Source: Escherichia coli
Lineage (GTDB): Bacteria > Pseudomonadota > Gammaproteobacteria > Enterobacterales > Enterobacteriaceae
Assembly (NCBI RefSeq): GCF_009931435.1
Contig: NZ_CP043414.1
Length of the DNA stretch: 64,000 bases
Strand: one strand, 5' to 3'
Below the pieces are notes generated by a model that had not been told where the DNA came from, made no database searches, and saw only the letters and a program-made list of their open reading frames with translations. Made by a program: the position numbers and the translations under genes. Shown piece by piece: positions 11,071 to 55,849 of the stretch; within the stretch, counting starts at the first letter, position 1; each line of letters opens with the position of its first letter.

Positions 11071-11364
11071 TCTATTGAAGAATGCCGGATACGAATGGTT
11101 TTGTGTCGTATCCGGTAAATAATCTCACATCTGGTAATAAATATTTCTTCCATCGTATTTGCGAGCATGATCACGATTATTCATCGCGAAAATGTGATCT
11201 GTGCTGAAAAATATCCCTTAACCGCCTTGCTTTGTTTTATCACTGTCCGGATTACGGACAGATTTTAGTATTGTTGTGAAATTATTCTGCTTTATATTTA
11301 CCCTCAGAGATGGCAACTGAAGCTCTTCCTCATGGGGCTTCTTAATCTGTGATAAGGGTAAAAA

Positions 11365-12918
11365 ATGCAAATGATTACCTCGCGACAAAACAGATTATTA
11401 CGATTCCTTCTACCACGAAGGGAATATACGACTATTGTTACGATTGCCGGCTATTTAAATGTTTCGGAAAAAACCATTCAACGTGATTTACGTTTACTTG
11501 AGCAATGGCTGGGGCAATGGAGAATAAATGTTGAGAAGCGTGCTGGCGCGGGTGTGATGTTAAGCGCGGAGAATATTGCTGATTTGCTGCATCTTGATCA
11601 TTTGTTGGTGGCAGAATGTGAAGAGATTGATGGTGTAATGAATAATGCCAGGCGCGTTAAAATAGCGTCGCAGTTATTAAGTGAAACACCGAATGAAACG
11701 TCGATCAGTAAATTGTCAGAACGCTACTTTATCAGCGGAGCCTCTATTGTTAATGACCTGAGAGTAATTGAGTCCTGGCTTGCGCCGTTGGGGTTATCGT
11801 TGATCCGCAGCCCAAGTGGTACGCATATTGAAGGTAGTGAAGGGCAAGTCCGACAGGCAATGGCATTACTGATTAACGGCATTATTAACCATAATGAGCC
11901 GCAAGGTGTCGTGTATTCACGTCTGGATCCCGGAAGTTATAAAGCATTAGTCCATTATTTTGGAGAGGAAGAAGTGTTATTTGTCCAGTCATTGTTACTG
12001 GATATGGAAAATGAATTAAGTTGGTCTTTGGGAGAACCTTATTACGTTAACATTTTTACTCACATCCTTATTATGATGTATCGCAACACGCACGGGAATG
12101 CGTTATCAAGAGAAGAAGATCAAACCAGGCAATATGATGAAAATATCTTTAATGTTGCCAGTCAGATGATTCATAAGATAGAACAACGAATTGCACATAC
12201 GTTGCCCGATGATGAAGTCTGGTTTATTTATCAATATATCATTTCATCAGGTGTGGCGATTGATGGACAAAAAGATGTTAGCATTATTTCACATATGCAG
12301 GCCAGCAATGAAGCGCGTCTGATTACCTGGCGTTTAATTACGGTATTCAGTGACATCGTGGACTGCGATTTTAGTGAAGACAGCGCATTATATGATGGCT
12401 TGTTGGTTCATATTAAGCCGCTGATTAACCGTTTAAATTATCGCATTCATATCCGTAATCCATTGCTGGAAGATATTAAAGCAGAATTAGCGGATGTCTG
12501 GCGGTTGACGCAATATGTGGTGAATCAGGTATTTAAAACCTGGGGTGAGAATGCAGTGAGCGAGGATGAAGTGGGTTACCTGACCGTTCATTTTCAGGCT
12601 GCGATGGAGCGGCAAATTGCCCGTAAACGTGTATTACTGGTCTGTTCAACCGGAATCGGAACTTCGCATCTACTGAAAAGCCGTATTCTGCGAGCATTTC
12701 CTGAATGGACGATTGTTGATGTTATTTCAGCAGCGAATTTATCACAGGTTTTGCCTGACAATATCGAACTGATTATTTCGACCATTAATTTGCCTACAGT
12801 CACTATGCCGGTCGCTTATGTTACCGCTTTTTTTAATGATGCCGATATTAAGCGGGTCACTGAAATGGTGATTACGGAAAAATTACATCATGCGACGTCT
12901 CGGGTCGTTGAAATTTAA
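11365..12918 (+). CDS. PRD-domain-containing transcriptional activator with N-terminal HTH and PTS EIIB/EIIA-like regulatory domains (frz operon regulator)
   Basis: 517-aa product; HTH segment (YLNVSEKTIQRDLRLLEQW), EIIB-like LLVCSTGIGTSHLL motif; first gene of the PTS/aldolase cluster. Confidence 0.8.
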   Translation: MQMITSRQNRLLRFLLPRREYTTIVTIAGYLNVSEKTIQRDLRLLEQWLGQWRINVEKRAGAGVMLSAENIADLLHLDHLLVAECEEIDGVMNNARRVKIASQLLSETPNETSISKLSERYFISGASIVNDLRVIESWLAPLGLSLIRSPSGTHIEGSEGQVRQAMALLINGIINHNEPQGVVYSRLDPGSYKALVHYFGEEEVLFVQSLLLDMENELSWSLGEPYYVNIFTHILIMMYRNTHGNALSREEDQTRQYDENIFNVASQMIHKIEQRIAHTLPDDEVWFIYQYIISSGVAIDGQKDVSIISHMQASNEARLITWRLITVFSDIVDCDFSEDSALYDGLLVHIKPLINRLNYRIHIRNPLLEDIKAELADVWRLTQYVVNQVFKTWGENAVSEDEVGYLTVHFQAAMERQIARKRVLLVCSTGIGTSHLLKSRILRAFPEWTIVDVISAANLSQVLPDNIELIISTINLPTVTMPVAYVTAFFNDADIKRVTEMVITEKLHHATSRVVEI

Positions 12919-35414: not shown

Positions 35415-35484
35415 AAATATGCGCTGCGCAGGTTTTTACTGTGCGCAGCGTGATGCGGTTTAAGATATCGTGTTAATCTGCTTT

Positions 35485-35678
35485 CGCCAGCAGTGGCAAT
35501 AGCGTTTCCGGCCTTTTATGCCGGGAGGGTCGGCGAGTCGCCGACTTAACGCCAGTAGGTTGTCCAGATACCCAAAGTCGCTCCATTGTACTTAAGTACG
35601 CTTCGCGTACGTCGCGCTGACGCGCTCAGTACAGTTACGCGCCTTCGGGATGGTTTGATGGTATTGCTGCTGTTGGCG
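35485..35678 (+). ncRNA. msr-msd: Retron msr-msd region (template for msDNA), Ec107-like; boundaries approximate
   Basis: Inverted repeats a1 (35485-35501) and a2 (35662-35678) can pair over 17 positions including G-U wobbles; internal perfect stem-loops at 35529-35545 and 35597-35611; lies immediately upstream of the RT gene. Confidence 0.55.
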
Positions 35679-35710
35679 CCTCTTTTGGCCGCCGTGATGT
35701 GGAGAGTGGA

Positions 35711-36670
35711 ATGGATGCTACCCGGATAACCCTTCTGGCGCTCGATTTGTTCGGCTCGCCGGGCTGGAGCGCCGATAAAGAAATACAGCGGCTGTATGCG
35801 CTCAGTAATCATGCCGGACGCCATTACCGACGCATTATTCTTTCTAAACGCCACGGTGGTCAGCGGCTGGTGTTAGCCCCTGATTACTTGCTCAAAACCG
35901 TACAGCGCAACATTCTTAAGAACGTCCTTTCACAATTTCCACTTTCCTCTTTTGCTACCGCCTACCGACAGGGTCGCCCAATCGTCAGCAACGCGCAGCC
36001 TCACTGCCAACAGCCGCAGATCCTTAAACTCGATATCGAAAACTTTTTCGATAGCATTAGCTGGCTACAGGTCTGGCGTGTGTTTAGCCAGACCCAGTTG
36101 CCACGCAATGTGGTAACCATGCTGACCTGGCTTTGTTGCTATAACGACGCGTTACCGCAGGGGGCGCCAACTTCGCCTGCCATTTCCAATCTTGTGATGC
36201 GCCGTTTTGATGAGTGCATAGGGGAATGGTGTCAGGCTCGGGGAATTACCTACACCCGCTACTGCGATGACATGACCTTTTCTGGTCACTTCAATGCCCG
36301 CCAGGTTAAAAATAAAGTATGCGGATTGTTAGCGGAGCTGGGCCTGAGCCTCAATCAACGCAAAAGCTGCCTGATAGCTGCCTGTAAGCGCCAGCAGGTA
36401 ACCGGGATTGTTGTTAATCACAAGCCACAGCTTGCCCGTGAAGCGCGCCGGGCGCTGCGTCAGGAAGTACATTTGTGCCAAAAATATGGCGTTATTTCGC
36501 ATCTTAGTCATCGTGGTGAACTTGATCCTTCTGGCGATCTCCACGCACAGGCAACGGCGTATCTTTATGCTTTGCAGGGAAGAATAAACTGGTTATTGCA
36601 AATCAATCCTGAGGATGAGGCCTTTAAACAGGCGAGGGTGAGTGTAAAGCGAATGCTGGTGGCATGGTAA
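35711..36670 (+). CDS. ret: Retron-type reverse transcriptase (319 aa), consistent with retron-Ec107 RT
   Basis: RT motifs including YCDDMTF (YxDD box); GGAG Shine-Dalgarno 6 nt upstream of the ATG at 35711; inserted between convergent pyrE and slmA. Confidence 0.9.
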   Translation: MDATRITLLALDLFGSPGWSADKEIQRLYALSNHAGRHYRRIILSKRHGGQRLVLAPDYLLKTVQRNILKNVLSQFPLSSFATAYRQGRPIVSNAQPHCQQPQILKLDIENFFDSISWLQVWRVFSQTQLPRNVVTMLTWLCCYNDALPQGAPTSPAISNLVMRRFDECIGEWCQARGITYTRYCDDMTFSGHFNARQVKNKVCGLLAELGLSLNQRKSCLIAACKRQQVTGIVVNHKPQLAREARRALRQEVHLCQKYGVISHLSHRGELDPSGDLHAQATAYLYALQGRINWLLQINPEDEAFKQARVSVKRMLVAW

Positions 36671-36713
36671 GAAAAGCGTCAGGCAGACGTTTCTGCCTGA
36701 ACGTTTGGGAGAA

Positions 36714-41499: not shown

Positions 41500-43264
<1,765 letters not shown>

Positions 43265-43615
43265 AGTAAATAGCTGACTTATGGATGTGCTGGGGATTCT
43301 ATGTATTTAGCTGTGGCTTTACCATTACTTTTCCCGTTTTTGACTTAAATAGCAATTTACCCGCCAATTCTTGCTGAACATCTATACTTTTTTTGTATTT
43401 TTATGCGATTCATTGATTTCCGCAGTACGTGCAGTAAGGAATCGCGGAGCAACAGTGAAAGAATATTGTTGCTAATGATTTTATTTGATTGATTTCTTTA
43501 TTGAAAAACAACGATGTGCTTAAAAATCATTCGGATCGGATTGCCGCGAAAGAAGTGATACACTAGCGCGTCAATATCAGTACGGTATCAGTATTCAGGT
43601 AGCTGTTGAGCCTGG

Positions 43616-43627
43616 GGCGGTAGCGTG
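43616..43627 (+). promoter_or_regulatory. ops element (within a JUMPstart sequence) in the waaQ operon leader; RfaH recruitment site
   Basis: GGCGGTAGCGTG matches the ops consensus; located about 50 bp upstream of waaQ. Confidence 0.8.
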
Positions 43628-43676
43628 CTTTTTCTGCTTCACCTTAATCGGATAATCTCAACAAAAAGAGTTACTT

Positions 43677-44735
43677 GTGGATAAGCCATTTCGAAGAATT
43701 TTGCTCATTAAGATGCGTTTTCATGGGGATATGTTATTAACTACTCCCGTCATTAGTTCGCTGAAAAAAAATTACCCTGACGCAAAAATCGATGTGCTGC
43801 TTTATCAGGATACCATCCCGATTCTGTCTGAAAATCCAGAGATTAACGCGCTCTACGGCATAAAAAATAAAAAAGCAAAAGCCTCAGAAAAAATTTCCAA
43901 CTTTTTTCATCTCATCAAGGTATTACGTGCCAATAAGTATGACCTTATCGTCAATCTTACCGATCAATGGATGGTTGCTATACTGGTTCGCTTATTAAAT
44001 GCCCGTGTGAAAATTTCCCAGGATTATCATCATCGGCAGTCTGCTTTTTGGCGTAAAAGCTTCACCCATCTGGTGCCGTTGCAGGGTGGAAATGTGGTGG
44101 AAAGTAACTTATCCGTGCTGACGCCACTGGGTCTCGAATCGTTGGTGAAGCAGACAACCATGAGTTACCCGCCTGCAAGCTGGAAACGAATGCGTCGCGA
44201 ACTTGATCACGCAGGTGTTGGACAAAATTATGTGGTTATCCAACCTACCGCGCGGCAAATCTTTAAATGCTGGGACAACGCCAAGTTTTCCGCTGTGATT
44301 GATGCCTTACATACACGTGGCTATGAAGTCGTTCTGACGTCCGGCCCGGATAAAGACGATCTGGCCTGCGTCAATGAAATTGCGCAGGGATGCCAGACGC
44401 CACCAGTAACGGCGTTGGCCGGAAAGGTAACCTTCCCGGAACTTGGTGCGTTAATCGATCATGCGCAGCTGTTTATTGGCGTTGATTCCGCACCGGCGCA
44501 CATTGCCGCTGCAGTTAATACGCCGCTGATATCGCTGTTTGGTGCGACAGACCATATTTTCTGGCGTCCCTGGTCAAATAACATGATTCAATTCTGGGCT
44601 GGAGATTACCGGGAAATGCCAACACGCGATCAGCGTGACCGAAATGAGATGTATCTTTCGGTTATTCCGGCGGCAGATGTCATTGCAGCTGTCGATAAAT
44701 TACTTCCCTCCTCCACGACAGGTACGTCGTTATGA
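43677..44735 (+). CDS. waaQ: LPS heptosyltransferase III
   Basis: Heptosyltransferase N-terminus (RILLIKMRFHGDMLLTTP, compare WaaC MRVLIVKTSSMGDVLHT); GTG start at 43677 assumed, true start may be a few codons downstream. Confidence 0.9.
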   Translation: MDKPFRRILLIKMRFHGDMLLTTPVISSLKKNYPDAKIDVLLYQDTIPILSENPEINALYGIKNKKAKASEKISNFFHLIKVLRANKYDLIVNLTDQWMVAILVRLLNARVKISQDYHHRQSAFWRKSFTHLVPLQGGNVVESNLSVLTPLGLESLVKQTTMSYPPASWKRMRRELDHAGVGQNYVVIQPTARQIFKCWDNAKFSAVIDALHTRGYEVVLTSGPDKDDLACVNEIAQGCQTPPVTALAGKVTFPELGALIDHAQLFIGVDSAPAHIAAAVNTPLISLFGATDHIFWRPWSNNMIQFWAGDYREMPTRDQRDRNEMYLSVIPAADVIAAVDKLLPSSTTGTSL

Positions 44736-45856
44736 TCGTTGCTTTTTGTTTATATAAATATTTTCCCTTTGGCGGTTTGCAGCGCGATTTTATGCGTATT
44801 GCTCAGACAGTCGCTGCCCGAGGTCATCATGTTCGGGTTTATACCCAGTCGTGGGAAGGCGAATGCCCTGATGTATTTGAACTGATCAACGTGCCGGTTA
44901 AATCGCATACTAATCACGGGCGCAATGCGGAGTATTTTGCCTGGGTGCAAAAACATTTACGTGAACATCCCGTCGATAGAGTCGTTGGATTCAACAAAAT
45001 GCCGGGGCTGGACGTTTATTATGCCGCTGATGTTTGTTATGCCGAGAAAGTGGCGCAGGAGAAAGGCTTTTTCTATCGCTTGACGTCACGTTATCGCCAT
45101 TATGCCGCCTTTGAGCGGGCAACCTTTGAACAGGGCAAGCCGACACAGTTGCTGATGCTGACGGACAAGCAAATCGCCGATTTCCAGAAACATTATCAGA
45201 CTGAAGCGGAGCGTTTTCATATTCTGCCACCGGGGATTTATCCTGATCGTAAATATAGCCAGCAGCCAGCCAATAGCCGTGAAATCTTCCGTAAGAAGAA
45301 TGGAATAACCGAACAACAATATTTATTGTTGCAGGTCGGTTCAGACTTCACGCGTAAAGGTGTTGATCGTTCCATTGAAGCACTTGCTTCATTACCGGAT
45401 TCGCTGCGCCACAACACATTGCTATATGTTGTTGGGCAGGATAAACCGCGAAAATTTGAGGCGCTGGCAGAAAAACGCGGCGTGCGCAGTAATGTTCACT
45501 TCTTCTCGGGGCGCAACGATGTCTCGGAATTAATGGCGGCGGCGGATTTATTACTGCATCCTGCCTACCAGGAAGCGGCGGGAATTGTGCTGCTGGAAGC
45601 GATTACTGCAGGATTACCGGTACTAACAACAGCCGTTTGTGGCTATGCGCGTTATATTGTTGACGCCAATTGCGGCGAGGCTATTGCTGAGCCATTCCGC
45701 CAGGAAACATTGAATGAGATTTTACGCAAAGCGTTAACGCAATCTTCATTGCGCCAGGCCTGGGCGGAAAATGCGCGACATTATGCTGATACACAAGATT
45801 TATACAGTCTGCCAGAGAAAGCAGCGGACATCATAACGGGTGGTCTGGATGGTTGA
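44732..45856 (+). CDS. waaG: LPS core alpha-1,3-glucosyltransferase I (GT4)
   Basis: 374-aa product matching WaaG. Confidence 0.95.
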
Positions 45857-46646
45857 ACTTAAAGAGCCGTTTGCCACGTTATGGCGCGGTAAAGATCCTT
45901 TTGAGGAAGTTAAAACCTTGCAGGGTGAGGTTTTTCGTGAACTGGAAACTCGCCGCACTCTGCGCTTTGAAATGGCGGGCAAAAGCTATTTTCTCAAATG
46001 GCATCGCGGCACGACCCTGAAAGAGATAATCAAAAATTTACTCTCATTGCGGATGCCAGTATTAGGCGCAGACCGCGAATGGAATGCGATTCATCGACTG
46101 CGGGATGTCGGCGTTGATACTATGTATGGGGTGGCATTCGGCGAAAAAGGCATTAATCCACTGACCAGAACCTCGTTTATTATAACCGAAGATCTGACAC
46201 CAACCATCAGTCTGGAAGATTACTGTGCTGACTGGGCGACTAACCCTCCAGATGTTCGCGTAAAGCGTATGCTTATTAAGCGTGTCGCGATGATGGTGCG
46301 CGATATGCATGCTGCGGGCATTAACCACCGTGACTGTTATATCTGTCATTTCCTGCTGCACTTGCCTTTTTCCGGTAAGGAAGAGGAGTTAAAAATTTCA
46401 GTAATTGACCTGCACCGGGCGCAGCTTCGCACGCGCGTTCCACGTCGTTGGCGCGATAAAGATCTTATTGGGCTTTATTTTTCTTCGATGAATATTGGCC
46501 TGACTCAGCGGGATATCTGGCGGTTCATGAAGGTGTATTTTGCTGCCCCGCTTAAAGACATTCTCAAGCAGGAACAAGGGCTGCTGTCGCAAGCAGAAGC
46601 AAAAGCCACAAAAATCAGGGAAAGAACGATTCGAAAATCGTTGTAA
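45849..46646 (+). CDS. waaP: LPS core heptose I kinase
   Basis: Start at [14 protein letters not shown] gives 265 aa. Confidence 0.95.
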
Positions 46647-46661
46647 TTTCCGGAGAGAAAT

Positions 46662-47678
46662 ATGAGTGCCCACTATTTTAATCCACAAGAGATGATCAAT
46701 AAGACAATCATCTTCGATGAAAGGCCAGAGGCGTCAGTGGCATCATCATTCCATGTTGCTTATGGCATTGATAAAAACTTTCTTTTTGGTTGTGGTGTTT
46801 CAATCACGTCAGTTTTGTTACATAACAACGACGTGAGTTTTGTCTTCCACGTTTTTATTGATGATATCCCTGACGCCGATATCCAGCGTTTATCCCAATT
46901 GGCGAAAAGCTATCATACCTGTATCCAGATCCATCTGGTAAATTGTGAACGGCTTAAGGTATTACCGACGACCAAAAATTGGTCTATTGCCATGTATTTC
47001 CGTTTTGTAATTGCAGATTACTTTATTGATCAACAAGATAAGATCCTGTACCTGGATGCTGATATCGCCTGTCAGGGAACCTTAAAACCGCTGATAACAA
47101 TGGATCTTGCCAATAACGTTGCTGCTGTTGTTACTGAACGCGATGCTAACTGGTGGTCGTTACGGGCTCAAAGTCTGCAGTGTAATGAACTTGAAAAGGG
47201 TTACTTTAATTCAGGTGTCCTGTTAATTAATACACTAGCGTGGGCGCAGGAGTCCGTTTCTGCTAAAGCGATGTCGATGCTTGCTGATAAAGCCGTCGTT
47301 TCCCGTTTAACCTATATGGATCAAGATATACTAAATCTTATCCTGTTAGGGAAAGTTAAATTCATTGATGCTAAATACAATACGCAATTTAGTTTAAATT
47401 ATGAATTAAAAAAATCATTTATTTGTCCAATTAATGATGAAACCGTATTAATTCATTATGTCGGCCCGACAAAACCCTGGCATTACTGGGCCGGTTATCC
47501 AAGCGCGCAGCCATTTATCAAAGCCAAAGAAGCATCGCCATGGAAAAATGAACCGTTAATGCGGCCAATTAACTCAAATTATGCTCGTTATTGCGCTAAG
47601 CATAATTTTAAACAAAATAAACCAATTAACGGGATAATGAATTATATTTATTATTTTTATTTAAAGATAATAAAATGA
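46662..47678 (+). CDS. waaO: GT8-family LPS outer-core glycosyltransferase; by position the R1-type WaaO
   Basis: 338-aa GT8 protein (DxD, YFNSGVLLIN motifs) immediately after waaP; AT-rich. Confidence 0.7.
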   Translation: MSAHYFNPQEMINKTIIFDERPEASVASSFHVAYGIDKNFLFGCGVSITSVLLHNNDVSFVFHVFIDDIPDADIQRLSQLAKSYHTCIQIHLVNCERLKVLPTTKNWSIAMYFRFVIADYFIDQQDKILYLDADIACQGTLKPLITMDLANNVAAVVTERDANWWSLRAQSLQCNELEKGYFNSGVLLINTLAWAQESVSAKAMSMLADKAVVSRLTYMDQDILNLILLGKVKFIDAKYNTQFSLNYELKKSFICPINDETVLIHYVGPTKPWHYWAGYPSAQPFIKAKEASPWKNEPLMRPINSNYARYCAKHNFKQNKPINGIMNYIYYFYLKIIK

Positions 47679-47694
47679 CATTGAGAAAAGTTAA

Positions 47695-48690
47695 ATGAAT
47701 GAATTTATAAAAGAACGGTTTTCGTATTTAGCAGATAATAAAAAAGAAAACGTCCCAGAGCTAAATGTTTCCTACGGTATCGATAAGAATTTTTTGTATG
47801 GTGCTGGCGTTTCAATTTCTTCCGTTTTGATTAATAATTCAGATATTAATTTTGTCTTTCATGTTTTCACTGATTATGTGGATGATGATTATTTAAAGTC
47901 ATTTAATGAAACAGCAAAACAATTTAATACCTCAATTATTGTATATTTAATTGACCCAAAATACTTTGCTGATCTACCGACGTCACAGTTTTGGTCGTAC
48001 GCGACATACTTCAGGGTATTGTCCTTTGAATATCTGAGTGAAAGTATTTCCACACTGCTGTATCTGGATGCCGATGTCGTTTGTAAAGGAAGTCTGAAAC
48101 CTCTCACAAAAATTATATTTAAAGATGAGTTTGCTGCGGTTATTCCTGACAATGATAGTACTCAGGCGGCATGTGCAAAACGTCTTAACATTCCCGAAAT
48201 GAATGGACGTTATTTCAATGCAGGCGTTATCTATGTCAATCTTAAAAAATGGCATGAAGCAAATTTGACACCGTATTTACTCAAACTTTTACGAGGGGAA
48301 ACTAAATATGGCTCTCTTAAATATTTAGATCAGGATGCGTTGAATATCGCATTTAATATGAATAATATCTACCTTGCGAAGGATTTTGATACTATTTATA
48401 CCCTGAAAAACGAACTTTATGATCGTAGTCATCGAAAGTATCAGCAAACCATTACCGATAAAACAGTGTTGATTCACTATACAGGGATAACTAAACCATG
48501 GCATAGCTGGGCTGGATATCCGTCTGCATCATACTTTAATATCGCGCGTGAACAATCTCCCTGGAAGAAATATCCTCTTAAAGAGGCGCGGACTGTTGCA
48601 GAAATGCAGAAACAATATAAGCATCTGTTTGCCCATGGTGAGTATATAAAAGGCATAACTTCATTAATTAAGTACAAGCTTAAGAAATAA
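47695..48690 (+). CDS. waaT: GT8-family LPS outer-core glycosyltransferase; by position the R1-type WaaT
   Basis: 331-aa GT8 paralog (LDADVVCKG, YFNAGVIYVN). Confidence 0.65.
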   Translation: MNEFIKERFSYLADNKKENVPELNVSYGIDKNFLYGAGVSISSVLINNSDINFVFHVFTDYVDDDYLKSFNETAKQFNTSIIVYLIDPKYFADLPTSQFWSYATYFRVLSFEYLSESISTLLYLDADVVCKGSLKPLTKIIFKDEFAAVIPDNDSTQAACAKRLNIPEMNGRYFNAGVIYVNLKKWHEANLTPYLLKLLRGETKYGSLKYLDQDALNIAFNMNNIYLAKDFDTIYTLKNELYDRSHRKYQQTITDKTVLIHYTGITKPWHSWAGYPSASYFNIAREQSPWKKYPLKEARTVAEMQKQYKHLFAHGEYIKGITSLIKYKLKK

Positions 48691-48699
48691 ATTACTCTT

Positions 48700-49392
48700 A
48701 TGATTACAAGTATACGTTATCGCGGCTTCTCATTTTATTACAAAGATAATGATAATAAATATAAAGAAATCTTTGATGAAATACTGGCCTATAATTTTAA
48801 AACAGTAAAAGTATTACGTAATATTGATGATACCAAAGTATCGTTGATTGATACGAAATATGGTCGCTATGTTTTTAAAGTCTTTGCTCCGAAAACGAAA
48901 AGGAATGAACGTTTTTTAAAATCTTTTGTAAAAGGTGACTACTATCAGAATTTGATCGTTGAAACCGATCGTGTCAGAAGTGCAGGTCTTACTTTTCCTA
49001 ATGATTTTTATTTTCTGGCTGAGCGTAAAATTTTCAACTATGCCAGTGTTTTTATCATGCTTATCGAGTATGTCGAGGGCGTAGAGCTCAATGATATGCC
49101 GATTATTCCAGAAAATGTTAAAGCAGAAATTAAGGTTTCAATGGAAAAATTGCATGCCTTAAATATGCTATCGGGCGACCCACACCGGGGTAACTTTATC
49201 GTTAGTAAAGATGGTGTCAGGATAATTGACCTATCCGGTAAAAGCTGTACGGCAGAGCGTAAAGCTCGTGATCGTCTGGCCATGGAACGTCACCTGGGTA
49301 TTGCCAACGAAATAAAAGATTATGGCTACTATTCAGTAATCTACAGAACCAAACTACGCAAATTTATTAAAAAATTAAAAGGCAAAGCGTAA
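48700..49392 (+). CDS. waaY: LPS core heptose II kinase
   Basis: 230-aa kinase-like protein between GT8 genes, as WaaY in waa clusters. Confidence 0.8.
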   Translation: MITSIRYRGFSFYYKDNDNKYKEIFDEILAYNFKTVKVLRNIDDTKVSLIDTKYGRYVFKVFAPKTKRNERFLKSFVKGDYYQNLIVETDRVRSAGLTFPNDFYFLAERKIFNYASVFIMLIEYVEGVELNDMPIIPENVKAEIKVSMEKLHALNMLSGDPHRGNFIVSKDGVRIIDLSGKSCTAERKARDRLAMERHLGIANEIKDYGYYSVIYRTKLRKFIKKLKGKA

Positions 49393-49417
49393 ACCACACA
49401 GTCAAAACGGAACCAAC

Positions 49418-50446
49418 ATGGATTTATTAGCTGAGAGTATTACTGAAGTCGCTGTCTCTGGGGAAATTGCTAACACCGATCGTGTGTTAAATATCGCTTA
49501 CGGTATTGACCGTAATTTTTTATTTGGTGCGGCAGTATCTATGCAATCAGTTGTTATGCATAACCCGGACCTTGCGGTTAAGTTTCATCTCTTTACCGAC
49601 TACATTGATGAAGATTATCTACAACGTGTTAACGCTTTTACCAGCAAAAATGCTAACGTTGAAGTAAGAATTTATAAAGTCTCCAGTGCCTTTATTGATA
49701 TCTTCCCCAGCCTGAAACAGTGGTCTTATGCAACATTCTTCCGTTTAGTTGCGTTCCAGTATCTGAGTGAAACTATTGAAAATCTGTTATATATCGATGC
49801 TGATGTCATCTGTAAAGGCTCATTAGCTGGATTGCTTGATATTAATTTTGACGGCGATAAGTTTGCAGCTGTTATTAAAGATGTGCCTTTTATGCAGGAA
49901 AAACCAGCGAAGCGTCTGGCTATAGAGGGACTTCCAGGGAATTATTTCAACGCTGGTGTAGTATATCTGCAGCTTGAAGCATGGTCGAAAAATGATTTTA
50001 TGAACAAAGCCATTGCTATGCTGGCAAGTGACCCGCAGCACACGAAATATAAATGCCTTGATCAGGATATTTTAAATATTCTGTTCTTTGGTCATTGTAT
50101 TTTTATTAGCGGCGATTATGATTGCTTTTATGGCATTGACTATGAGTTAAAAAATAAAAGCAATGAAGATTATAAAAAGACCATTACCGATGATACTAAG
50201 CTGATTCATTATGTTGGCGTAACGAAGCCCTGGAACGACTGGACAAATTATCCCTGCCAGAAGTATTTTAATGAGGCTTATCAGGCTTCTTGCTGGAATG
50301 ATGTGGCGTTTATTCCAGCCACGAATGAAAAGCAGTATCAAGTGAAATACCAACATGCAAAGAAAAATGGTGATACGTTTAACGCTTTCATTTACTTCAT
50401 TAAATTCAAATTAAATAAGTATAAAAGAAAACTATTTGGGCAATAA
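49418..50446 (+). CDS. waaW: GT8-family LPS outer-core glycosyltransferase; by position the R1-type WaaW
   Basis: 342-aa GT8 paralog (IDADVICKG, YFNAGVVYLQ). Confidence 0.65.
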   Translation: MDLLAESITEVAVSGEIANTDRVLNIAYGIDRNFLFGAAVSMQSVVMHNPDLAVKFHLFTDYIDEDYLQRVNAFTSKNANVEVRIYKVSSAFIDIFPSLKQWSYATFFRLVAFQYLSETIENLLYIDADVICKGSLAGLLDINFDGDKFAAVIKDVPFMQEKPAKRLAIEGLPGNYFNAGVVYLQLEAWSKNDFMNKAIAMLASDPQHTKYKCLDQDILNILFFGHCIFISGDYDCFYGIDYELKNKSNEDYKKTITDDTKLIHYVGVTKPWNDWTNYPCQKYFNEAYQASCWNDVAFIPATNEKQYQVKYQHAKKNGDTFNAFIYFIKFKLNKYKRKLFGQ

Positions 50447-50524
50447 AAATCATGGATGTCTGAGTTACAATAATAATTAAGGATGAGTACTATCATATTT
50501 TATTAGTTCAGGCAAGAGAACACG

Positions 50525-51508
50525 ATGAGCAATGATTACCCTTTAGTATCCATAATAATACCGACGTATAATTCATCTGATTACATTACTGAAACTCTAA
50601 CGAAATTAGAAAAACAAACTTACCCAAATTTTGAAATTGTTATTGTTAATGATGGTTCTAAAGATAACACATCAAACGTTTTGAGAGAGTATGGGTTAAC
50701 CCACTCGCAATTAATTATTATCAATAAAGAAAATGGCGGTGTTTCGTCTGCCAGGAATACAGGTATCCGCAAGGCGCAAGGACAGTTTATATGTTTTATG
50801 GATGATGATGATGAGATAGATCCTAACTATCTGCTGAAGATGTATTCCAGACAACATGAGACGGGAGGGGATGCGATTTATTGTGGGCTTTATGGCCATC
50901 ATATAAAAAATGGTGTTACTTACTCACCTATAAATACAGAGTTTAATGAAGGGTCTTTACTTTTCGACTTTTTTTATAAAAAGGTCAGATTCCATATAGG
51001 GTGCTTGTTTATAAGAAAACAACTCCTGGAAGATAATAATCTTTTTTTTGATGAAGATTTACGACTAGGAGAAGATCTGGATTTTATCTATCGACTGCTA
51101 ATTACATGCGATATGTATGCGGTTCCATATTATATGTATAAGCATAACTATAGAGAAAATTCCTTAATGAACTCATGTAGAACCATCACTCATTATCGAC
51201 ATGAGTCATTTGCGCACGAAAGAATCTACTCTTCTGTGATGCAGTTATACAAAGGTAACCGGAAAGAAGAAATTCATACATTATTGAGTAAAAATAGAAC
51301 TTATCATAAAACTCGTTATTTATGGAATGTTCTACTTAATGGCGATTTTGAATTATTAAATCAATTAGTTGAAAGCAATGAAAAAGAATTGAAAGATTGT
51401 AATCTTCTTGGCAAGAGAGATAAGAGGCGAGCAAAAATATTAGCATCAAAAAACTATATTCTCTGGAGGATGGTAAGACTGGTAAATAGAAAAAAGAATA
51501 AACGTTAG
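50525..51508 (+). CDS. waaV: GT2-family glycosyltransferase; by position the R1-type WaaV
   Basis: 327-aa protein with the GT2 N-terminus VSIIIPTYNSSDYI...VIVNDGSKDNT and DDDD motif. Confidence 0.65.
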   Translation: MSNDYPLVSIIIPTYNSSDYITETLTKLEKQTYPNFEIVIVNDGSKDNTSNVLREYGLTHSQLIIINKENGGVSSARNTGIRKAQGQFICFMDDDDEIDPNYLLKMYSRQHETGGDAIYCGLYGHHIKNGVTYSPINTEFNEGSLLFDFFYKKVRFHIGCLFIRKQLLEDNNLFFDEDLRLGEDLDFIYRLLITCDMYAVPYYMYKHNYRENSLMNSCRTITHYRHESFAHERIYSSVMQLYKGNRKEEIHTLLSKNRTYHKTRYLWNVLLNGDFELLNQLVESNEKELKDCNLLGKRDKRRAKILASKNYILWRMVRLVNRKKNKR

Positions 51509-51553
51509 GTCTTCCATTAAATAACCCATCCTCGTAGCATAGGTTGAAATTAT

Positions 51554-52807
51554 ATGTCGTTTTGTTGGAATGAAATTAACTCTGGTGTCAAGTCTTTAAC
51601 TCTCATATTATGTATGTTGTCTTTAATGACTTTGTCTTTGTGGGATGATGTTGCAACAAAGTTTCTTCATGCAGCTGGAATTATATCTGCATTATATTTT
51701 CTAGCGACACCAAAAAAAACAATAACTAATAATCCTACGTTGTTAATTTTCATCTCATTATGTCTTTTGGGTATCGTTAATATCATCTGGTATTCACATT
51801 ATAAAGTTTCAGGCTCGGTTTATACCAATGCATATCGTGGCCCAATGGAAACTGGAAAAATTGCCTTGTGTAGTGCTTTTATTTTCTTAGTTCTTTTTGC
51901 TAAAGATGAGATGAGAACCAAAATAAAATTTGGGAAACTAATTCTGTTCGCATCCCTGGCAACGCAGTTACTTTTTTTTGCGCATGCCATGTGGCAACAT
52001 TTCTATTTAAACGTCGACCGTGTTGCATTATCAGCTTCCCACGCTACAACAGCAGGCTACATCATCCTTTTCCCTTCTTTACTGGCATCAATTCTCATTT
52101 TAAAATCCGACTTTAGACATAAAACAACATTATATACAATTAACTTCATGCTTAGCTTATGTGCTGTTATAGTAACTGAAACGCGTGCAGCCATATTAGT
52201 GTTTCCATTCTTTGCGTTACTATTAATCGTAATGGATAGTTATATTAATAAGCGAATTAATTATAAGTTATATTGTTTTATTGCGATTGCATTATTAGCA
52301 GGTGTATTTTCTTTTAAAGATACATTACTTACGAGAATGAATGACTTAAATAGGGATTTAGTTAATTATTCGCATGATAACACCAGAACTTCAGTCGGTG
52401 CCCGTCTGGCAATGTATGAAGTTGGTTTAAAAACATATTCTCCAATAGGACAATCACTGGAAAAACGCGCGGAAAAAATACATGAACTAGAAGAGAAAGA
52501 GCCTAGATTAAGTGGCGCTTTACCCTTTGTAGATTCTCATTTGCATAACGATCTCATAGATACGTTATCAACGCGTGGTATTCCTGGAGTAGTATTAACA
52601 ATTTTAGCCTTTTCAGCAATATTCATATATGCCTTAAGAACTGCTAAAGAACCTTATATTTTAATCTTGCTTTTTTCACTACTGGTAGTAGGCCTAAGTG
52701 ATGTAATACTCTTTTCTAAACCGGTTCCGACTGCTGTGTTTGTCACCATAATATTGCTTTGTGCTTATTTTAAAGCACAATCGGACCAATGTTTATTAGA
52801 TAAGTAA
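51554..52807 (+). CDS. waaL: O-antigen ligase
   Basis: 417-aa highly hydrophobic polytopic protein at the end of the waaQ operon. Confidence 0.8.
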   Translation: MSFCWNEINSGVKSLTLILCMLSLMTLSLWDDVATKFLHAAGIISALYFLATPKKTITNNPTLLIFISLCLLGIVNIIWYSHYKVSGSVYTNAYRGPMETGKIALCSAFIFLVLFAKDEMRTKIKFGKLILFASLATQLLFFAHAMWQHFYLNVDRVALSASHATTAGYIILFPSLLASILILKSDFRHKTTLYTINFMLSLCAVIVTETRAAILVFPFFALLLIVMDSYINKRINYKLYCFIAIALLAGVFSFKDTLLTRMNDLNRDLVNYSHDNTRTSVGARLAMYEVGLKTYSPIGQSLEKRAEKIHELEEKEPRLSGALPFVDSHLHNDLIDTLSTRGIPGVVLTILAFSAIFIYALRTAKEPYILILLFSLLVVGLSDVILFSKPVPTAVFVTIILLCAYFKAQSDQCLLDK

Positions 52808-52817
52808 TGAATATGTG

Positions 52818-52849
52818 AAATAAAATCAGCAAGGAAGCTGATTTTATTT
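52818..52849. terminator. Bidirectional terminator between convergent waaL and waaC
   Basis: Perfect 13-bp inverted repeat AAATAAAATCAGC/GCTGATTTTATTT with a 6-nt loop. Confidence 0.55.
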
Positions 52850-52876
52850 CAAAATTATCTATTAAAGAGTTGTAAT

Positions 52877-53857
52877 TTAAATCATGGCAGCTTTTTCAGC
52901 GTTTTCTTCAATGAATTGCTTAACAGCATTTGCTGTCAATTGAGACAACTCATTCCCCGGTGCCCTACATACCATCTGATTCTTCCCATACCCGCCAATT
53001 AATCCCGGATCGGTTGGCCCATAAACCGTGATATTCGGTCGATCCAGTGCTGCAGTTAAATGGCTTAATCCTGTATCGACTGACACAACAAATTTAGCCC
53101 CCGCCAGCACACAAGCAACGCCTTCCAGACTCATCTTCGGCAATACTTCAACATAAGCAAATCCTTCCGCCAGTCTTTTTGCCCGCTCTTCTTCATGCGG
53201 CGCGCCCCACGGAAGTTTAATGCGAATCCCTGAATCTGCCAGTAAACCAATCAACTCTCGCCAGTGTGCTTCCGGCCAGTGTTTATCATCACGGGTTGTT
53301 GCATGAAGAAATACGGCATATTCGCCAGCATCTGTTGGCAGGTTCGTCAGGAAATGCTGCGCAATAGCATAATCGCCCTGAGTCTGCGGTTTGCTATAGC
53401 CCAGACTTTTGGCAAACAGTTCGCGGGTGCGTTCTACGGCGTGCTGCTGTTTTGCAATATGATGTTTACGATTGTAAAACAGGCTGGCTAAAGGTTCGCG
53501 TGCGGTTTGCCAGTCCATTCCATGCTTTACGCCATGCGCCAGACGCGTAACTAGTGCCGCGCTTTTTACCAGCCCCTGAGCGTCGATAACTGCGTCATAG
53601 TTCTCTGCTTGTAGCGCTTCACGAAACGCTTTGCGTTCAGCTTTTATGGGGGCCGAGAACCAGGCTTTACGCCAGCGACGTATTGCCACAGGAATAACTC
53701 GCTCAACGGCGGCGTGCCAGGAAGGAATTTGTGCGAACCCTTCTTCCACCACCCAGTCAAACTTAATCCCCGGGATTGCCTGCTGGGCATCAGTGAGTGC
53801 GGGCAACGTATGGAGAACATCGCCCATCGACGATGTTTTAACGATCAAAACCCGCAT
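52877..53857 (-). CDS. waaC: LPS heptosyltransferase I
   Basis: MRVLIVKTSSMGDVLHTLPALTDAQ... matches WaaC. Confidence 0.95.
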   Translation of the reverse strand: MRVLIVKTSSMGDVLHTLPALTDAQQAIPGIKFDWVVEEGFAQIPSWHAAVERVIPVAIRRWRKAWFSAPIKAERKAFREALQAENYDAVIDAQGLVKSAALVTRLAHGVKHGMDWQTAREPLASLFYNRKHHIAKQQHAVERTRELFAKSLGYSKPQTQGDYAIAQHFLTNLPTDAGEYAVFLHATTRDDKHWPEAHWRELIGLLADSGIRIKLPWGAPHEEERAKRLAEGFAYVEVLPKMSLEGVACVLAGAKFVVSVDTGLSHLTAALDRPNITVYGPTDPGLIGGYGKNQMVCRAPGNELSQLTANAVKQFIEENAEKAAMI

Positions 53858-53860
53858 CCG

Positions 53861-54907
53861 TCAGGCTTCCTCTTGTAACAATAGCGCGTTGAGTTCTTCC
53901 AGTACGCGCTGGGGAGTAATGTCGATCAAGCTCTGGTGATAACCCTCCGCAGCATCACCTTTACGCACTTTGTGATAGCCGGTAATCAGGCGGATCACGC
54001 GCGCTTTATGGGATAGTGGCGGTGTGAAGTCCGGGCTACTCGGACCATACAGGGCAACCAAAGGACGATTGAGCGCCGCCGCAACGTGCATCAGGCCAGA
54101 ATCGTTAGTGACAATGGCTTTACAGGCTGCAATCAGGATAACCGCTTGATCAAGCTGTGTTTCCCCCGCCAGGTTCCGGCACCATGCCTGCTGCTCGGTA
54201 TTCAAAGCGGCAAGAATCTCATTGCCCGCTTCATGATCTTTCGCCGAGCCAAACAGAACCACCTGATAACCTTCATCAATCAGCTGCTTTGCCAGCTCAG
54301 CATAGTGGTAGTGTGGCCAGCGTTTTGCCGGACCAAACTCCGCCCCCGGGCAAAAGCCAATCATCGGACGTTCTGATGAGAGCGAAAATTGATTACAGGT
54401 ATATGATTTTTCACCTTCGCTCACCTGCAACTGCGGCCATAACAATGGCTGCGGCAGATCTTGTGCGGTACGCATAATGCCTTTGTCATAGGCCAGCGCG
54501 ACATAGCGTTCCACCATTAGCGGCCAGGCTTCTTTATCGAGCACGCGTACATCGTTAAGTAAACCGTAGCGCATCTCGCCGCGCCAGCCGGTGCGATGAG
54601 GAATACCCGCGAAGAAAGGCACTAATGCGGACTTGAAGGAGTTGGGTAAGACGTAGGCGCGGTCGTAGCGCTTTTCACGCAGACTATGACCCAGTTTGCG
54701 GCGTTCGCCGATTTCCAGCGCTCCGTGACCGAGAGGCATAGGGATAGCTTCGTTAACTTCCGGCATCCGCGATAACAATGGACGGCACCATGCCGGTGCC
54801 ATCACGTCGATTATCGCCTGGGGATAGCGCGCCTGGAGCGTGCGATAGAGACTTTGCGACATCATCATGTCGCCAACCCAAGACGGGCCGATCACCAGTA
54901 TTTTCAT
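53861..54907 (-). CDS. waaF: LPS heptosyltransferase II
   Basis: 348-aa MKILVIGPSWVGDMMMSQSLYRTL... matches WaaF. Confidence 0.95.
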   Translation of the reverse strand: MKILVIGPSWVGDMMMSQSLYRTLQARYPQAIIDVMAPAWCRPLLSRMPEVNEAIPMPLGHGALEIGERRKLGHSLREKRYDRAYVLPNSFKSALVPFFAGIPHRTGWRGEMRYGLLNDVRVLDKEAWPLMVERYVALAYDKGIMRTAQDLPQPLLWPQLQVSEGEKSYTCNQFSLSSERPMIGFCPGAEFGPAKRWPHYHYAELAKQLIDEGYQVVLFGSAKDHEAGNEILAALNTEQQAWCRNLAGETQLDQAVILIAACKAIVTNDSGLMHVAAALNRPLVALYGPSSPDFTPPLSHKARVIRLITGYHKVRKGDAAEGYHQSLIDITPQRVLEELNALLLQEEA

Positions 54908-54916
54908 GCAGAGCTC

Positions 54917-55849
54917 TTATGCGTCGCGATTCAGCCAGGCCATGTATTCCGTTACACCTTCAGCAACGGTTTTGAACGGTTTGTCGTAACCCGCCGCGCG
55001 CAGATTCGTCAGATCTGCCTGAGTGAACGCCTGATAGCGGCCTTTCAGTTTATCCGGGAACGGAATGTATTCGATCTGGCCTTTCTTGTGATAAGCAAGC
55101 GTAGCATCTGCTACTGCCTGGAAGGATTCTGCACGACCGGTGCCGAGGTTGAAGATGCCGGAAACGCCGTTTTCCAGGAACCACAGATTCACATCAGCCA
55201 CGTCGCCCACATAGACGAAGTCACGTTTGAAGTTCTCGCTACCTTCGAACAGCTTCGGTGATTCACCGTTGTTAAGCTGAGTGTTGAGATGGAAAGCGAC
55301 GCTCGCCATGCTGCCTTTATGGCCTTCACGCGGTCCATAAACGTTGAAATAGCGGAAGCCAACAATCTGCGAGTTCGCTTCTGGCAGGATTTGGCGAACA
55401 TATTCATCAAACAGGAATTTTGAGTAACCGTAGACGTTCAACGGTTTTTCGTACTCGCGGGATTCAATAAAGTCGGAGGTGCGACCGCCGTAAGTGGCCG
55501 CGGAAGAAGCGTACAGGAACGGGATTTCGCGTTCCAGACAGTAGTGCAGCAGCTCTTTGGAGTATTGATAGTTGTTATCCATCATATACTTGCCATCCCA
55601 CTCGGTGGTGGAAGAGCACGCGCCTTCGTGGAAAATCGCTTCGACATCGCCGAACTCTTCGCCAGCCATAATCTGGATCAGGAAGTCTTCCTTATCCATA
55701 TAGTCCGCGATATCCAGATCCACCAGGTTCACAAACTTGGTGCCGTCTTTCAGGTTGTCCACCACCAGAATATCGGTGATGCCTTTGTCATTCAGGGCTT
55801 TAACGATGTTGCTGCCGATAAAGCCCGCGCCGCCGGTAACGATGATCAT
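54917..55849 (-). CDS. hldD: ADP-L-glycero-D-manno-heptose 6-epimerase
   Basis: 310-aa [23 protein letters not shown]... (Rossmann GxxGxxG) matches HldD (RfaD). Confidence 0.95.

What the first reader, a model, noticed from the sequence alone, without database searches (positions are those of the whole stretch)
43560..43676. ops/JUMPstart element in the waaQ leader
The waaQ operon leader contains GGCGGTAGCGTG (43616-43627), a match to the ops motif that recruits RfaH to suppress polarity in long LPS and capsule operons. Its presence upstream of a horizontally exchanged R1 outer-core block shows that the regulatory leader is conserved while the downstream genes vary.
Basis: partly seen in the sequence, partly recalled or inferred. 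Interest (0 to 1): 0.25.

Follow-up and report, generated by a model that had tools for sequence, protein, structure and literature searches.

The report
RfaH loading site before waaQ
This is the well-known JUMPstart/ops signal in the leader of the E. coli LPS-core operon, where the factor RfaH boards RNA polymerase so that the long, AT-rich operon is transcribed to its end; it is real, intact and ordinary.

Summary
GGCGGTAGCGTG lies at 43616-43627 on the + strand. It forms the 3' end of a full 39-nt JUMPstart element (43589-43627; Rfam RF01707, 55.2 bits against a cut-off of 35, E 6e-10). The element sits in the 5' UTR of waaQ, 49 nt before its GTG start.

By alignment with the annotated MG1655 sRNA gene rirA, the inferred transcript start is 43571, behind a conserved extended -10 box (TGATACACT). 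The downstream genes are an R1-type core cluster, collinear and 97.8% identical with strain CFT073. In CFT073, published ChIP-seq shows RfaH loading at this leader and RNA polymerase loss without RfaH.

The leader is base-for-base identical in R3 and R4 strains. Against K-12/R2 strains, divergence starts inside the intergenic region (about 43354) and runs through waaQGP. Within that divergence a 48-bp island (43586-43633: JUMPstart, ops, T-run) is identical, and 5422 of 5426 complete E. coli genomes carry it.

One small extra: in most Enterobacteriaceae the leader RNA is predicted to fold into a long hairpin that pairs the RNA copy of the ops 3' half with the 5' end of the transcript. A U-run usually follows. 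This terminator-like shape may relate to RirA, but it is only suggestive.

Verdict: already known, low interest.

The parts
43556..43564 (+). Extended -10 promoter element TGaTACACT of the waaQ promoter (inferred)
   Evidence: It ends 6 nt upstream of the inferred TSS. TGnTAnAnT is present in 46 of 47 orthologous leaders, 48-57 nt upstream of ops. The simple sigma-70 scan did not call it because there is no good -35.
43571..43642 (+). [quoted passage not shown] Position 43571 is therefore the inferred TSS.
   Evidence: rirA is annotated in NC_000913.3 at 3808166-3808238 on the - strand. The statement that rirA and waaQ mRNA share a start site comes from PMC8745692 and PMC5736990.
43589..43627 (+). 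JUMPstart element (39 nt). Its small hairpin has arms 43596-43600 and 43610-43614.
   Evidence: Rfam RF01707, 55.2 bits against GA 35, E 6.4e-10. The hairpin pairs are kept in 46 of 46 leaders, with A-U/G-U/G-C variation at the outer pair.
43616..43627 (+). ops element GGCGGTAGCGTG. The expected RNA polymerase pause is at U11 (43626).
   Evidence: Exact match. The 12-mer is identical in 46 of 47 waaQ leaders from different species. Functional bases are taken from PMC5995543.
43629..43633 (+). T5 run immediately after ops (C43628, then TTTTT)
   Evidence: Read from the sequence. At least 6 T in the 9 nt after ops in 38 of 47 leaders.
43579..43629 (+). Predicted long leader-RNA hairpin. The 5' arm AGUACG (43579-43584) pairs with CGUGCU (43624-43629), which is ops C9-G12 plus the next two nucleotides CU. 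It encloses the JUMPstart.
   Evidence: It is the MFE and centroid structure of the window leader, and the same architecture appears in 7 of 8 leaders folded. 88% of cells are paired against 34-52% in slid controls. Shuffling the 5' arm lowers predicted pairing from 6.4 to 2.7 out of 8. RNAalifold did not predict it.
43666..43679 (+). Weak Shine-Dalgarno-like AAGAG (43666-43670) and the GTG start codon of waaQ (43677-43679)
   Evidence: AAGAG in 43 of 47 and GTG in 47 of 47 orthologous leaders. PGAP uses the same start in strains 2013C-4282 and CFT073. The RfaQ equivalog aligns from residue 1.
43677..52807 (+). The operon served by the element, R1-type. Genes: waaQ 43677-44735, waaG 44732-45856, waaP 45840-46646, waaO 46662-47678, GT8 (waaT) 47695-48690, waaY 48700-49392, GT8 (waaW) 49418-50446, GT2 (waaV) 50525-51508, ligase (waaL) 51554-52807.
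   Evidence: ORFs, NCBIfam, Pfam, source names, collinearity with CFT073. The gene names waaT, waaW and waaV come from my own knowledge of the R1 cluster.
41987..43264 (-). Divergent waaA (Kdo transferase), which bounds the intergenic region
   Evidence: NCBIfam NF004385, 905 bits. Annotated as waaA.

Best explanation
The segment is the 5' untranslated leader of the waaQ (LPS core) operon and carries a canonical JUMPstart element ending in a canonical ops site.

The proposed mechanism runs as follows. Transcription starts at about 43571 from an extended -10 promoter. When RNA polymerase has transcribed ops it pauses at U11 (43626). [quoted passage not shown]

RfaH binds, and its C-terminal domain is released and refolds. 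It then travels with the polymerase. It suppresses pausing, excludes NusG (and so Rho-dependent termination), helps elongation through H-NS/StpA-coated AT-rich DNA, and recruits a ribosome to the weak start (AAGAG, then GTG) 49 nt downstream. All nine genes down to waaL are thereby expressed.

Shown here: the presence, integrity, position and conservation of the element. Taken from the literature: the mechanism and RfaH dependence. Inferred: the TSS.
For: - **Motif and family.** Exact ops at 43616-43627. Full-length JUMPstart above Rfam's curated threshold.
- **Placement.** Same strand as waaQ, 45 nt after the inferred TSS and 49 nt before the start codon.
- **Conservation across species.** In 47 leaders: ops 12-mer identical in 46, TGnTAnAnT in 46, GTG start in 47, AAGAG in 43.
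- **Conservation within E. coli.** The 48-bp island 43586-43633 is in 5422 of 5426 genomes and exact in 4906. This holds even though the surrounding intergenic DNA and waaQGP are only 45-85% identical to K-12.
- **Functional bases.** All bases required for RfaH recruitment and for pausing are present (PMC5995543).
- **Experimental evidence in a near-identical strain.** CFT073 has the same R1 gene order at 97.8% identity, and its leader differs at one base (43582), outside JUMPstart/ops. In CFT073, RfaH ChIP-seq signal starts at the rfa leader ops, and RNA polymerase occupancy collapses along the operon in a delta-rfaH mutant (PMC9765446).
- **Substrate type.** The outer-core block is 33-39% GC, the kind of H-NS-bound DNA RfaH is reported to counter-silence.
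Against: Nothing in the data argues against it.

Limits: RfaH dependence was not and cannot be tested here for this strain. The TSS is inferred from orthology to the MG1655 rirA annotation and from a conserved -10 box, not measured. waaQ does have a weak SD-like AAGAG, so 'lacks a ribosome-binding site' is only partly true.
Confidence: 0.95

Rival explanations
1. The element also works as RNA. The first ~72 nt of the transcript (43571-43642) accumulate as a RirA-type small RNA. [quoted passage not shown] This is complementary to the DNA-level role, not exclusive of it.
For: MG1655 annotates rirA (b4760) at the orthologous position. The window sequence aligns to it over its full length, with an identical JUMPstart/ops core. 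Reviews report that RirA shares the waaQ TSS, contains ops/JUMPstart, binds RfaH with RNAP in an ops-dependent way, and mimics delta-rfaH when overexpressed (PMC6358824, PMC5736990, PMC8745692). The region folds into one defined hairpin.
Against: All published evidence is from K-12 and from overexpression. I could not read the primary paper. The window version differs from K-12 rirA at 5 positions in the 5' arm and by one T in the U-run. Accumulation of the short RNA in an R1 strain is untested.
Confidence: 0.5
2. The leader contains an RfaH-sensitive attenuator. The long hairpin 43579-43629 followed by U5 would act as an intrinsic terminator that stops polymerases which failed to load RfaH at ops, producing the RirA-size RNA. 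RfaH-modified polymerases would read through.
For: - The hairpin plus U-run is the MFE fold in the window and in K-12, Salmonella, Citrobacter, Pseudescherichia, Cedecea and Pseudocitrobacter leaders.
- 88% of cells are paired against 34-52% in slid controls, and 7 pairs show changes on both sides.
- 5'-arm variants GUGCG, GUACG, GCACG, ACACG and GCGCG all keep pairing with the invariant ops CGUGC.
- Shuffling only the 5' arm drops predicted pairing from 6.4 to 2.7 of 8, and 44 of 46 leaders score above their control.
- A T-rich run follows ops in 38 of 47 leaders.
- RfaH is reported to reduce termination at some factor-independent signals (abstract of PMC2871177).
Against: - RNAalifold did not predict the outer helix.
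- The 3' arm is invariant ops, so most support is one-sided transitions opposite G or U, which always preserve pairing.
- The sequences are related, so the shuffle controls overstate significance.
- The stem base is weak (G-U and A-U pairs), and the terminator scan did not call it.
- The U-run is absent in 9 of 47 leaders.
- The K-12 rfb leader shows the same helix register but no U-run.
- The annotated RirA 3' end lies about 15 nt past the stem, further than typical intrinsic termination.
Confidence: 0.2
3. The match is a chance or vestigial sequence with no regulatory role.
For: None beyond the formal possibility.
Against: Rfam E-value 6e-10. The 12-mer is invariant in 46 of 47 species, at a fixed distance from the promoter and start codon. 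A 48-bp island of identity sits inside otherwise diverged DNA. ChIP evidence exists in a near-identical strain.
Confidence: 0.01

Closest known systems
ops (operon polarity suppressor) element, the recruitment site of the NusG paralogue RfaH
   Same: It has the identical 12-nt sequence GGCGGTAGCGTG. It lies on the non-template strand of a 5' leader, a few tens of nt before the first gene of a long, AT-rich cell-envelope operon. All bases shown to be needed for recruitment and pausing are present.
   Different: Nothing detectable at the sequence level. RfaH dependence in this particular strain is untested.
JUMPstart element (Rfam RF01707; Hobbs and Reeves' 39-bp 'just upstream of many polysaccharide-associated gene starts')
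   Same: Full-length match, 55.2 bits against GA 35. It has the conserved 5-bp hairpin and ops at its 3' end.
   Different: There is one inserted base in the hairpin loop relative to the Rfam consensus. Here, and in most Enterobacteriaceae waaQ leaders, the element is embedded in a longer predicted hairpin followed by a U-run, which the Rfam model does not include.
RirA sRNA / waaQ leader of E. coli K-12 (rirA, b4760)
   Same: Orthologous position. It has the same extended -10 box and the same inferred 5' end. JUMPstart and ops are identical, and the predicted hairpin architecture is the same.
   Different: There are 5 substitutions in the first 15 nt, T5 instead of T6, and one substitution near the 3' end. 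The window belongs to the R1/R3/R4 leader allele, and K-12 belongs to the K-12/R2 allele.
rfa (waaQ) leader of uropathogenic E. coli CFT073, an experimentally mapped RfaH target
   Same: Same R1 gene order and a 412-bp intergenic region of the same length. The leader from TSS to start codon differs at a single base, 43582 A/G. ChIP-seq shows RfaH loading at this ops.
   Different: There are 11 substitutions across the whole intergenic region, 10 of them upstream of the TSS.

Membership tests
ops element (RfaH recruitment site) | 12-nt sequence matching GGCGGTAGnnTG | tested here: met
   Exact GGCGGTAGCGTG at 43616-43627.
ops element (RfaH recruitment site) | Bases needed for RfaH binding (C3, G4, G5, T6, A7, G8, with the C3:G8 pair) and the pause-inducing T11-G12 | tested here: met
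   All are present in the sequence. The requirements are taken from the mutagenesis and crystal structure in PMC5995543.
ops element (RfaH recruitment site) | Located on the non-template strand of a transcribed, untranslated 5' leader upstream of the first gene | tested here: met
   It is on the + strand, the same as waaQ. It starts 45 nt downstream of the TSS inferred from the rirA annotation and the conserved -10 box, and ends 49 nt before the GTG. The TSS is inferred, not measured.
ops element (RfaH recruitment site) | Expression of downstream genes depends on RfaH, and RfaH associates with the elongation complex from this site | not testable with these tools
   This was shown by ChIP-seq and a delta-rfaH mutant in CFT073, whose leader differs at one base outside the element. 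It was not tested for this strain.
JUMPstart (Rfam RF01707) | Score at or above the curated gathering threshold over the full model | tested here: met
   55.2 bits against 35, model positions 1-38 of 38, E 6.4e-10.
JUMPstart (Rfam RF01707) | Conserved short hairpin 5' of ops | tested here: met
   Arms 43596-43600 and 43610-43614. Across 46 leaders, the 4 of these pairs that RNAalifold predicted are kept in every sequence, with G-C, A-U and G-U alternation at the outer pair.
JUMPstart (Rfam RF01707) | Lies just upstream of a polysaccharide biosynthesis gene cluster | tested here: met
   It is immediately upstream of the waaQGP-outer core-waaL cluster.
RirA sRNA | Sequence orthologous to MG1655 rirA (b4760), at the 5' end of the waaQ transcript and containing ops | tested here: met
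   Full-length alignment with an identical 48-nt core.
RirA sRNA | Accumulates as a discrete ~73-nt RNA that binds RfaH | not testable with these tools
   Only K-12 data reported in reviews is available. The primary paper is not held.
E. coli R1 core-type waa locus | Gene order waaQ-G-P-O-T-Y-W-V-L, with a GT2 (WaaV) rather than the GT25 (WaaX) of R4, and waaL on the same strand as waaQ | tested here: met
   Three GT8 genes, waaY, a GT2 and a Wzy_C ligase are all on the + strand. An R4 strain has a GT25 at that position. The locus is collinear with CFT073 at 97.8% identity. The definition of the R1 order comes from my own knowledge (Heinrichs, Yethon and Whitfield 1998).
Intrinsic (Rho-independent) terminator / leader attenuator | Stable G+C-rich hairpin immediately followed by a U-run, causing transcript release | tested here: inconclusive
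   A long imperfect hairpin (-20.3 kcal/mol, z -1.6) ends at 43629 and is followed by U4-5. The consensus terminator scan did not call it. Termination itself is untested.

The most novel reading that the evidence does not exclude
Leader architecture: in Enterobacteriaceae the waaQ leader may be more than 'promoter plus JUMPstart'. The RNA copy of the ops 3' half (C9-C13) pairs with a GYRYG segment at the 5' end of the transcript, forming a ~50-nt hairpin that encloses the JUMPstart and is usually followed by a U-run.

Proposed role: this would be an intrinsic-terminator-like checkpoint placed a few nucleotides after the RfaH loading pause. Polymerases that did not acquire RfaH would terminate and release the RirA-size RNA, which in turn binds RfaH. 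RfaH-loaded polymerases would read through.

Wider implication: the K-12 rfb leader shows the same helix register without the U-run. Sequestering ops RNA in a hairpin may therefore be a general, undescribed part of JUMPstart function.
Probability: 0.2. Interest if true: 0.4.

Novelty: already known. Interest (0 to 1): 0.1.

Why it matters
The element is the on-switch for expression of the whole LPS core operon, so its integrity predicts a normal, RfaH-dependent smooth or complete-core phenotype for this strain. Beyond confirming that, it adds little. The ops/JUMPstart/RfaH system, the waaQ leader and RirA are all described, and a near-identical R1 strain has direct ChIP evidence.

Two modest points may be useful:
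- E. coli carries two deep lineages of leader plus waaQGP (R1/R3/R4 versus K-12/R2), and they share only a 48-bp identical core. This is a clean natural delimitation of the functionally constrained part of the leader.
- The leader hairpin plus U-run is conserved across genera. It could explain how the RirA 3' end arises and whether RfaH loading is checked by attenuation.

Tried and rejected
- **Whole-leader fold.** Folding the whole 115-nt leader (43566-43680) gave no more stability than shuffles (z +0.73). Only the RirA-sized part is modestly structured (z -1.6).
- **RNAalifold.** On 46 leaders it predicted only the small JUMPstart hairpin and a tiny ops hairpin, not the long helix. I therefore keep the long helix as suggestive only.
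- **Promoter and terminator scan.** The generic scan found no convincing waaQ promoter and no terminator at the leader hairpin. Its two promoter-like hits are at chance level (2 found, 1.5 expected).
- **Second ops-like site.** GGCAGTAGCGTG at 13224 has a mismatch at the essential G4, lies inside an ORF, and is within chance expectation. Rejected.
- **Extra GGCGGTAG copies.** In Salmonella and Kluyvera loci they lie about 480 nt upstream of the leader ops. I took these to fall in waaA coding DNA and did not pursue them.
- **Loci with no exact ops.** Among loci with no exact ops close upstream of waaQ, 20 (Providencia, Arsenophonus, Moellerella, Siccibacter, Kluyvera intermedia and others) were scanned with Rfam. 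Only Brenneria and Superficieibacter had a JUMPstart, 1.3-1.5 kb upstream. The arrangement is therefore typical of Enterobacteriaceae rather than universal.
- **Primary RirA paper.** Klein et al. 2016 JBC could not be read. A search for Term-seq data on rirA found nothing usable.

Full report
**1. Observation**

The sequence GGCGGTAGCGTG is at 43616-43627 on the + strand, exactly as reported. It is the only exact copy in the window. Allowing one mismatch, shuffles give a mean of 0.20 hits. The only other hit, GGCAGTAGCGTG at 13224, is inside a 156-aa ORF and changes a base that is essential for RfaH recruitment.

An Rfam scan of the whole window at curated thresholds found two RNAs. One is tRNA-Sec. 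The other is a full-length JUMPstart element at 43589-43627 (RF01707, 55.2 bits against a gathering score of 35, E 6.4e-10), whose last 12 nt are the ops motif.

**2. Context**

- The element lies in the 412-bp gap between divergent waaA (41987-43264, - strand; Kdo transferase equivalog, 905 bits) and waaQ (43677-44735, + strand; RfaQ equivalog, 713 bits, aligned from residue 1).
- After waaQ, all on the + strand, come waaG, waaP, waaO, a GT8 gene, waaY, a second GT8 gene, a GT2 gene and an O-antigen ligase. Then waaC, waaF and hldD follow on the - strand.
- This is the R1 gene order, a definition taken from my own knowledge of Heinrichs et al. 1998.
- The block 46647-52876 is found at 80% coverage or more in 1825 of 5426 complete E. 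coli genomes. Some other genomes share only its first 60%. The one such strain examined is R4, carrying a GT25 gene where this window has a GT2.
- The locus 41987-55849 is collinear with uropathogenic strain CFT073 at 97.8% identity.
- The outer-core block is 33-39% G+C, against about 50% in its flanks.

**3. Anatomy of the leader**

MG1655 annotates a 73-nt ncRNA gene, rirA (b4760), between waaQ and waaA. [quoted passage not shown]

Aligned to the window, rirA corresponds to 43571 to about 43642. This gives the following layout:

| Feature | Coordinates |
|---|---|
| Extended -10 box TGATACACT, ending 6 nt upstream of the TSS | 43556-43564 |
| Inferred TSS | 43571 |
| ops, positions +46 to +57 of the transcript | 43616-43627 |
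| Expected pause at U11 | 43626 |
| T5 run | 43629-43633 |
| Weak SD-like AAGAG | 43666-43670 |
| GTG start of waaQ | 43677 |

The 5' UTR is therefore 106 nt long.

**4. Conservation across species**

A scan of one genome per species for WaaQ relatives returned 72 loci. Of these, 46 have GGCGGTAG about 60 nt upstream of waaQ. With the window added, that makes 47 leaders:

| Feature | Leaders with it (of 47) |
|---|---|
| ops 12-mer identical | 46 |
| TGnTAnAnT box, 48-57 nt upstream of ops | 46 |
| AAGAG | 43 |
| GTG start codon | 47 |
| At least 6 T in the 9 nt after ops | 38 |

Morganellaceae and a few other loci lack the element within 1.5 kb. Brenneria and Superficieibacter have it 1.3-1.5 kb upstream.

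**5.

The intergenic region matches in 5424 of 5426 genomes but falls into two classes. 4467 records are at least 95% identical, and 936 are only 60-80% identical. K-12 is in the second class.

Strains with an R3 cluster (2013C-4282) and an R4 cluster (24A16CRGN010) have a leader identical to the window's. Their similarity to the window stops exactly at the end of waaP (46646) and resumes at waaC.

K-12 and R2 strains carry a second allele. Against K-12:
- Identity is 100% for 43265-43353.
- It collapses from about 43354, reaching 43% in the 43400 bin.
- It stays at 60-85% through waaQ, waaG and waaP.
- WaaQ itself is only 73% identical to the K-12-type protein, but 79-81% identical to Citrobacter, Silvania and Kluyvera WaaQ.

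Inside this diverged stretch, the 48 bp from 43586 to 43633 (JUMPstart, ops, T-run) are identical between the two alleles. This island is present in 5422 of 5426 genomes and exact in 4906. The constrained unit is therefore the promoter-JUMPstart-ops core, not the whole leader.

**6. Mechanism**

The mechanism is taken from the literature.

- ops is a consensus pause. Polymerase pauses at U11.
- G4C, G5A, A7T and G8C abolish recruitment. G12C abolishes the pause (PMC5995543).
- Bound RfaH refolds its C-terminal domain, recruits the ribosome through S10, suppresses pausing and excludes NusG/Rho.
- In CFT073, RfaH ChIP-seq signal begins at the rfa leader ops and persists along the operon. RNA polymerase occupancy collapses in a delta-rfaH mutant. 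The operon is coated with H-NS/StpA, and ops lies 40-67 nt from the translation start (PMC9765446).

The window's leader differs from CFT073's at one base, 43582 A/G, outside JUMPstart and ops. This evidence therefore transfers almost directly. What I have not shown, and cannot show, is RfaH dependence in this strain.

**7. A secondary observation: a long leader hairpin**

The RirA-sized RNA of the window folds into one long imperfect hairpin, 43579-43629, at -20.3 kcal/mol with z -1.6. In it, AGUACG near the 5' end pairs with CGUGCU, which is ops C9-G12 plus the next two nucleotides. The hairpin encloses the JUMPstart hairpin and is followed directly by the U-run.

Evidence for the hairpin:
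- The same architecture is the minimum-energy fold in K-12, Salmonella, Citrobacter, Pseudescherichia (z -4.3), Cedecea and Pseudocitrobacter leaders. It is not the fold in one Citrobacter lineage.
- On the 46-sequence alignment, 88% of cells pair, against 34-52% when partners are slid. Seven pairs show changes on both sides.
- The 5' arm varies (GUGCG, GUACG, GCACG, ACACG, GCGCG) while always remaining able to pair with the invariant ops.
- Shuffling only the first 18 nt lowers predicted pairing with ops positions 8-15 from 6.4 to 2.7 out of 8. 44 of 46 leaders are above their control.
- The K-12 rfb leader shows a helix in the same register (AUGCAUGC with GCGUGCAU) but no U-run.

Caveats:
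- RNAalifold did not recover the helix.
- The 3' arm is invariant, so most support comes from transitions opposite G or U. Those can never break a pair.
- The sequences are related to each other.
- The terminator scan did not call the structure.

I rate it about 50% likely that the hairpin is a real feature of the leader/RirA RNA. I rate it about 20% likely that it acts as an RfaH-sensitive attenuator.

**8. Verdict**

The finding is correct and correctly interpreted. It describes a textbook element (ops/JUMPstart/RfaH) in its textbook location (the waaQ leader). The element is annotated at the RNA level in K-12 (rirA) and validated experimentally in a near-identical R1 strain. Novelty: already known. 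Interest: low.

Noticed in passing
window 35416-36712 (ORF 35699-36670, + strand): There is a ~1.3-kb insertion between pyrE and slmA that is absent from K-12 C600 and strain 2013C-4282. It encodes a 323-aa reverse transcriptase: Pfam RVT_1, and PADLOC RT_Ec107-like at 439 bits, E 2e-132. This is evidently a retron Ec107-type element at its classical pyrE-slmA(ttk) site. The msr/msd RNA genes were not located.
   Followed up: partly
window 43354-43515: The middle of the waaA-waaQ intergenic region is allele-specific: about 43% identity to K-12, with indels. In the R1/R3/R4 allele it contains a 10-bp-stem inverted repeat with a T-rich tail (43448-43473, AGCAACAGTGAAAGAATATTGTTGCT), upstream of the waaQ promoter. 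Its function is unknown. It could be a regulator site or an insulator between the divergent promoters.
   Followed up: no
window 43677-43712; L003 (MG1655 waaQ b3632): The MG1655 reference annotation starts waaQ at an internal ATG (344 aa). That is 12 codons downstream of the GTG used by PGAP in other strains. The GTG and the preceding AAGAG are conserved in 47 of 47 and 43 of 47 species, and the RfaQ equivalog aligns from residue 1. The upstream GTG is therefore probably the true start.
   Followed up: partly
window 43677-46646 (waaQ, waaG, waaP): E. coli has two deep lineages of the 'conserved' inner-core genes. R1/R3/R4 strains share one (98% identity to the window). K-12/R2 strains share another (60-85% nucleotide identity; WaaQ 73% amino-acid identity). 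The window's WaaQ is closer to Citrobacter, Silvania and Kluyvera WaaQ (79-81%) than to K-12-type E. coli WaaQ.
   Followed up: partly
L078 (E. coli strain E2, NZ_CP104509.1) 10696-11904: An IS4-like ISVsa5 transposase gene sits in the waaA-waaQ intergenic region of this R2 strain, just upstream of the retained waaQ promoter and leader. It may alter waaQ or waaA expression.
   Followed up: no
window 6977-7067 (- strand): The tRNA-Sec gene (selC) scores 83.8 bits. selC is a known integration hot-spot for pathogenicity islands. Its flanks were not examined.
   Followed up: no
window 43582: This is a polymorphic A/G position within E. coli: A in the window, R3 and R4 strains, and G in CFT073, K-12 and R2. 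It lies in the 5' arm of the predicted leader hairpin, opposite ops U11, so both alleles pair (A-U or G-U).
   Followed up: partly
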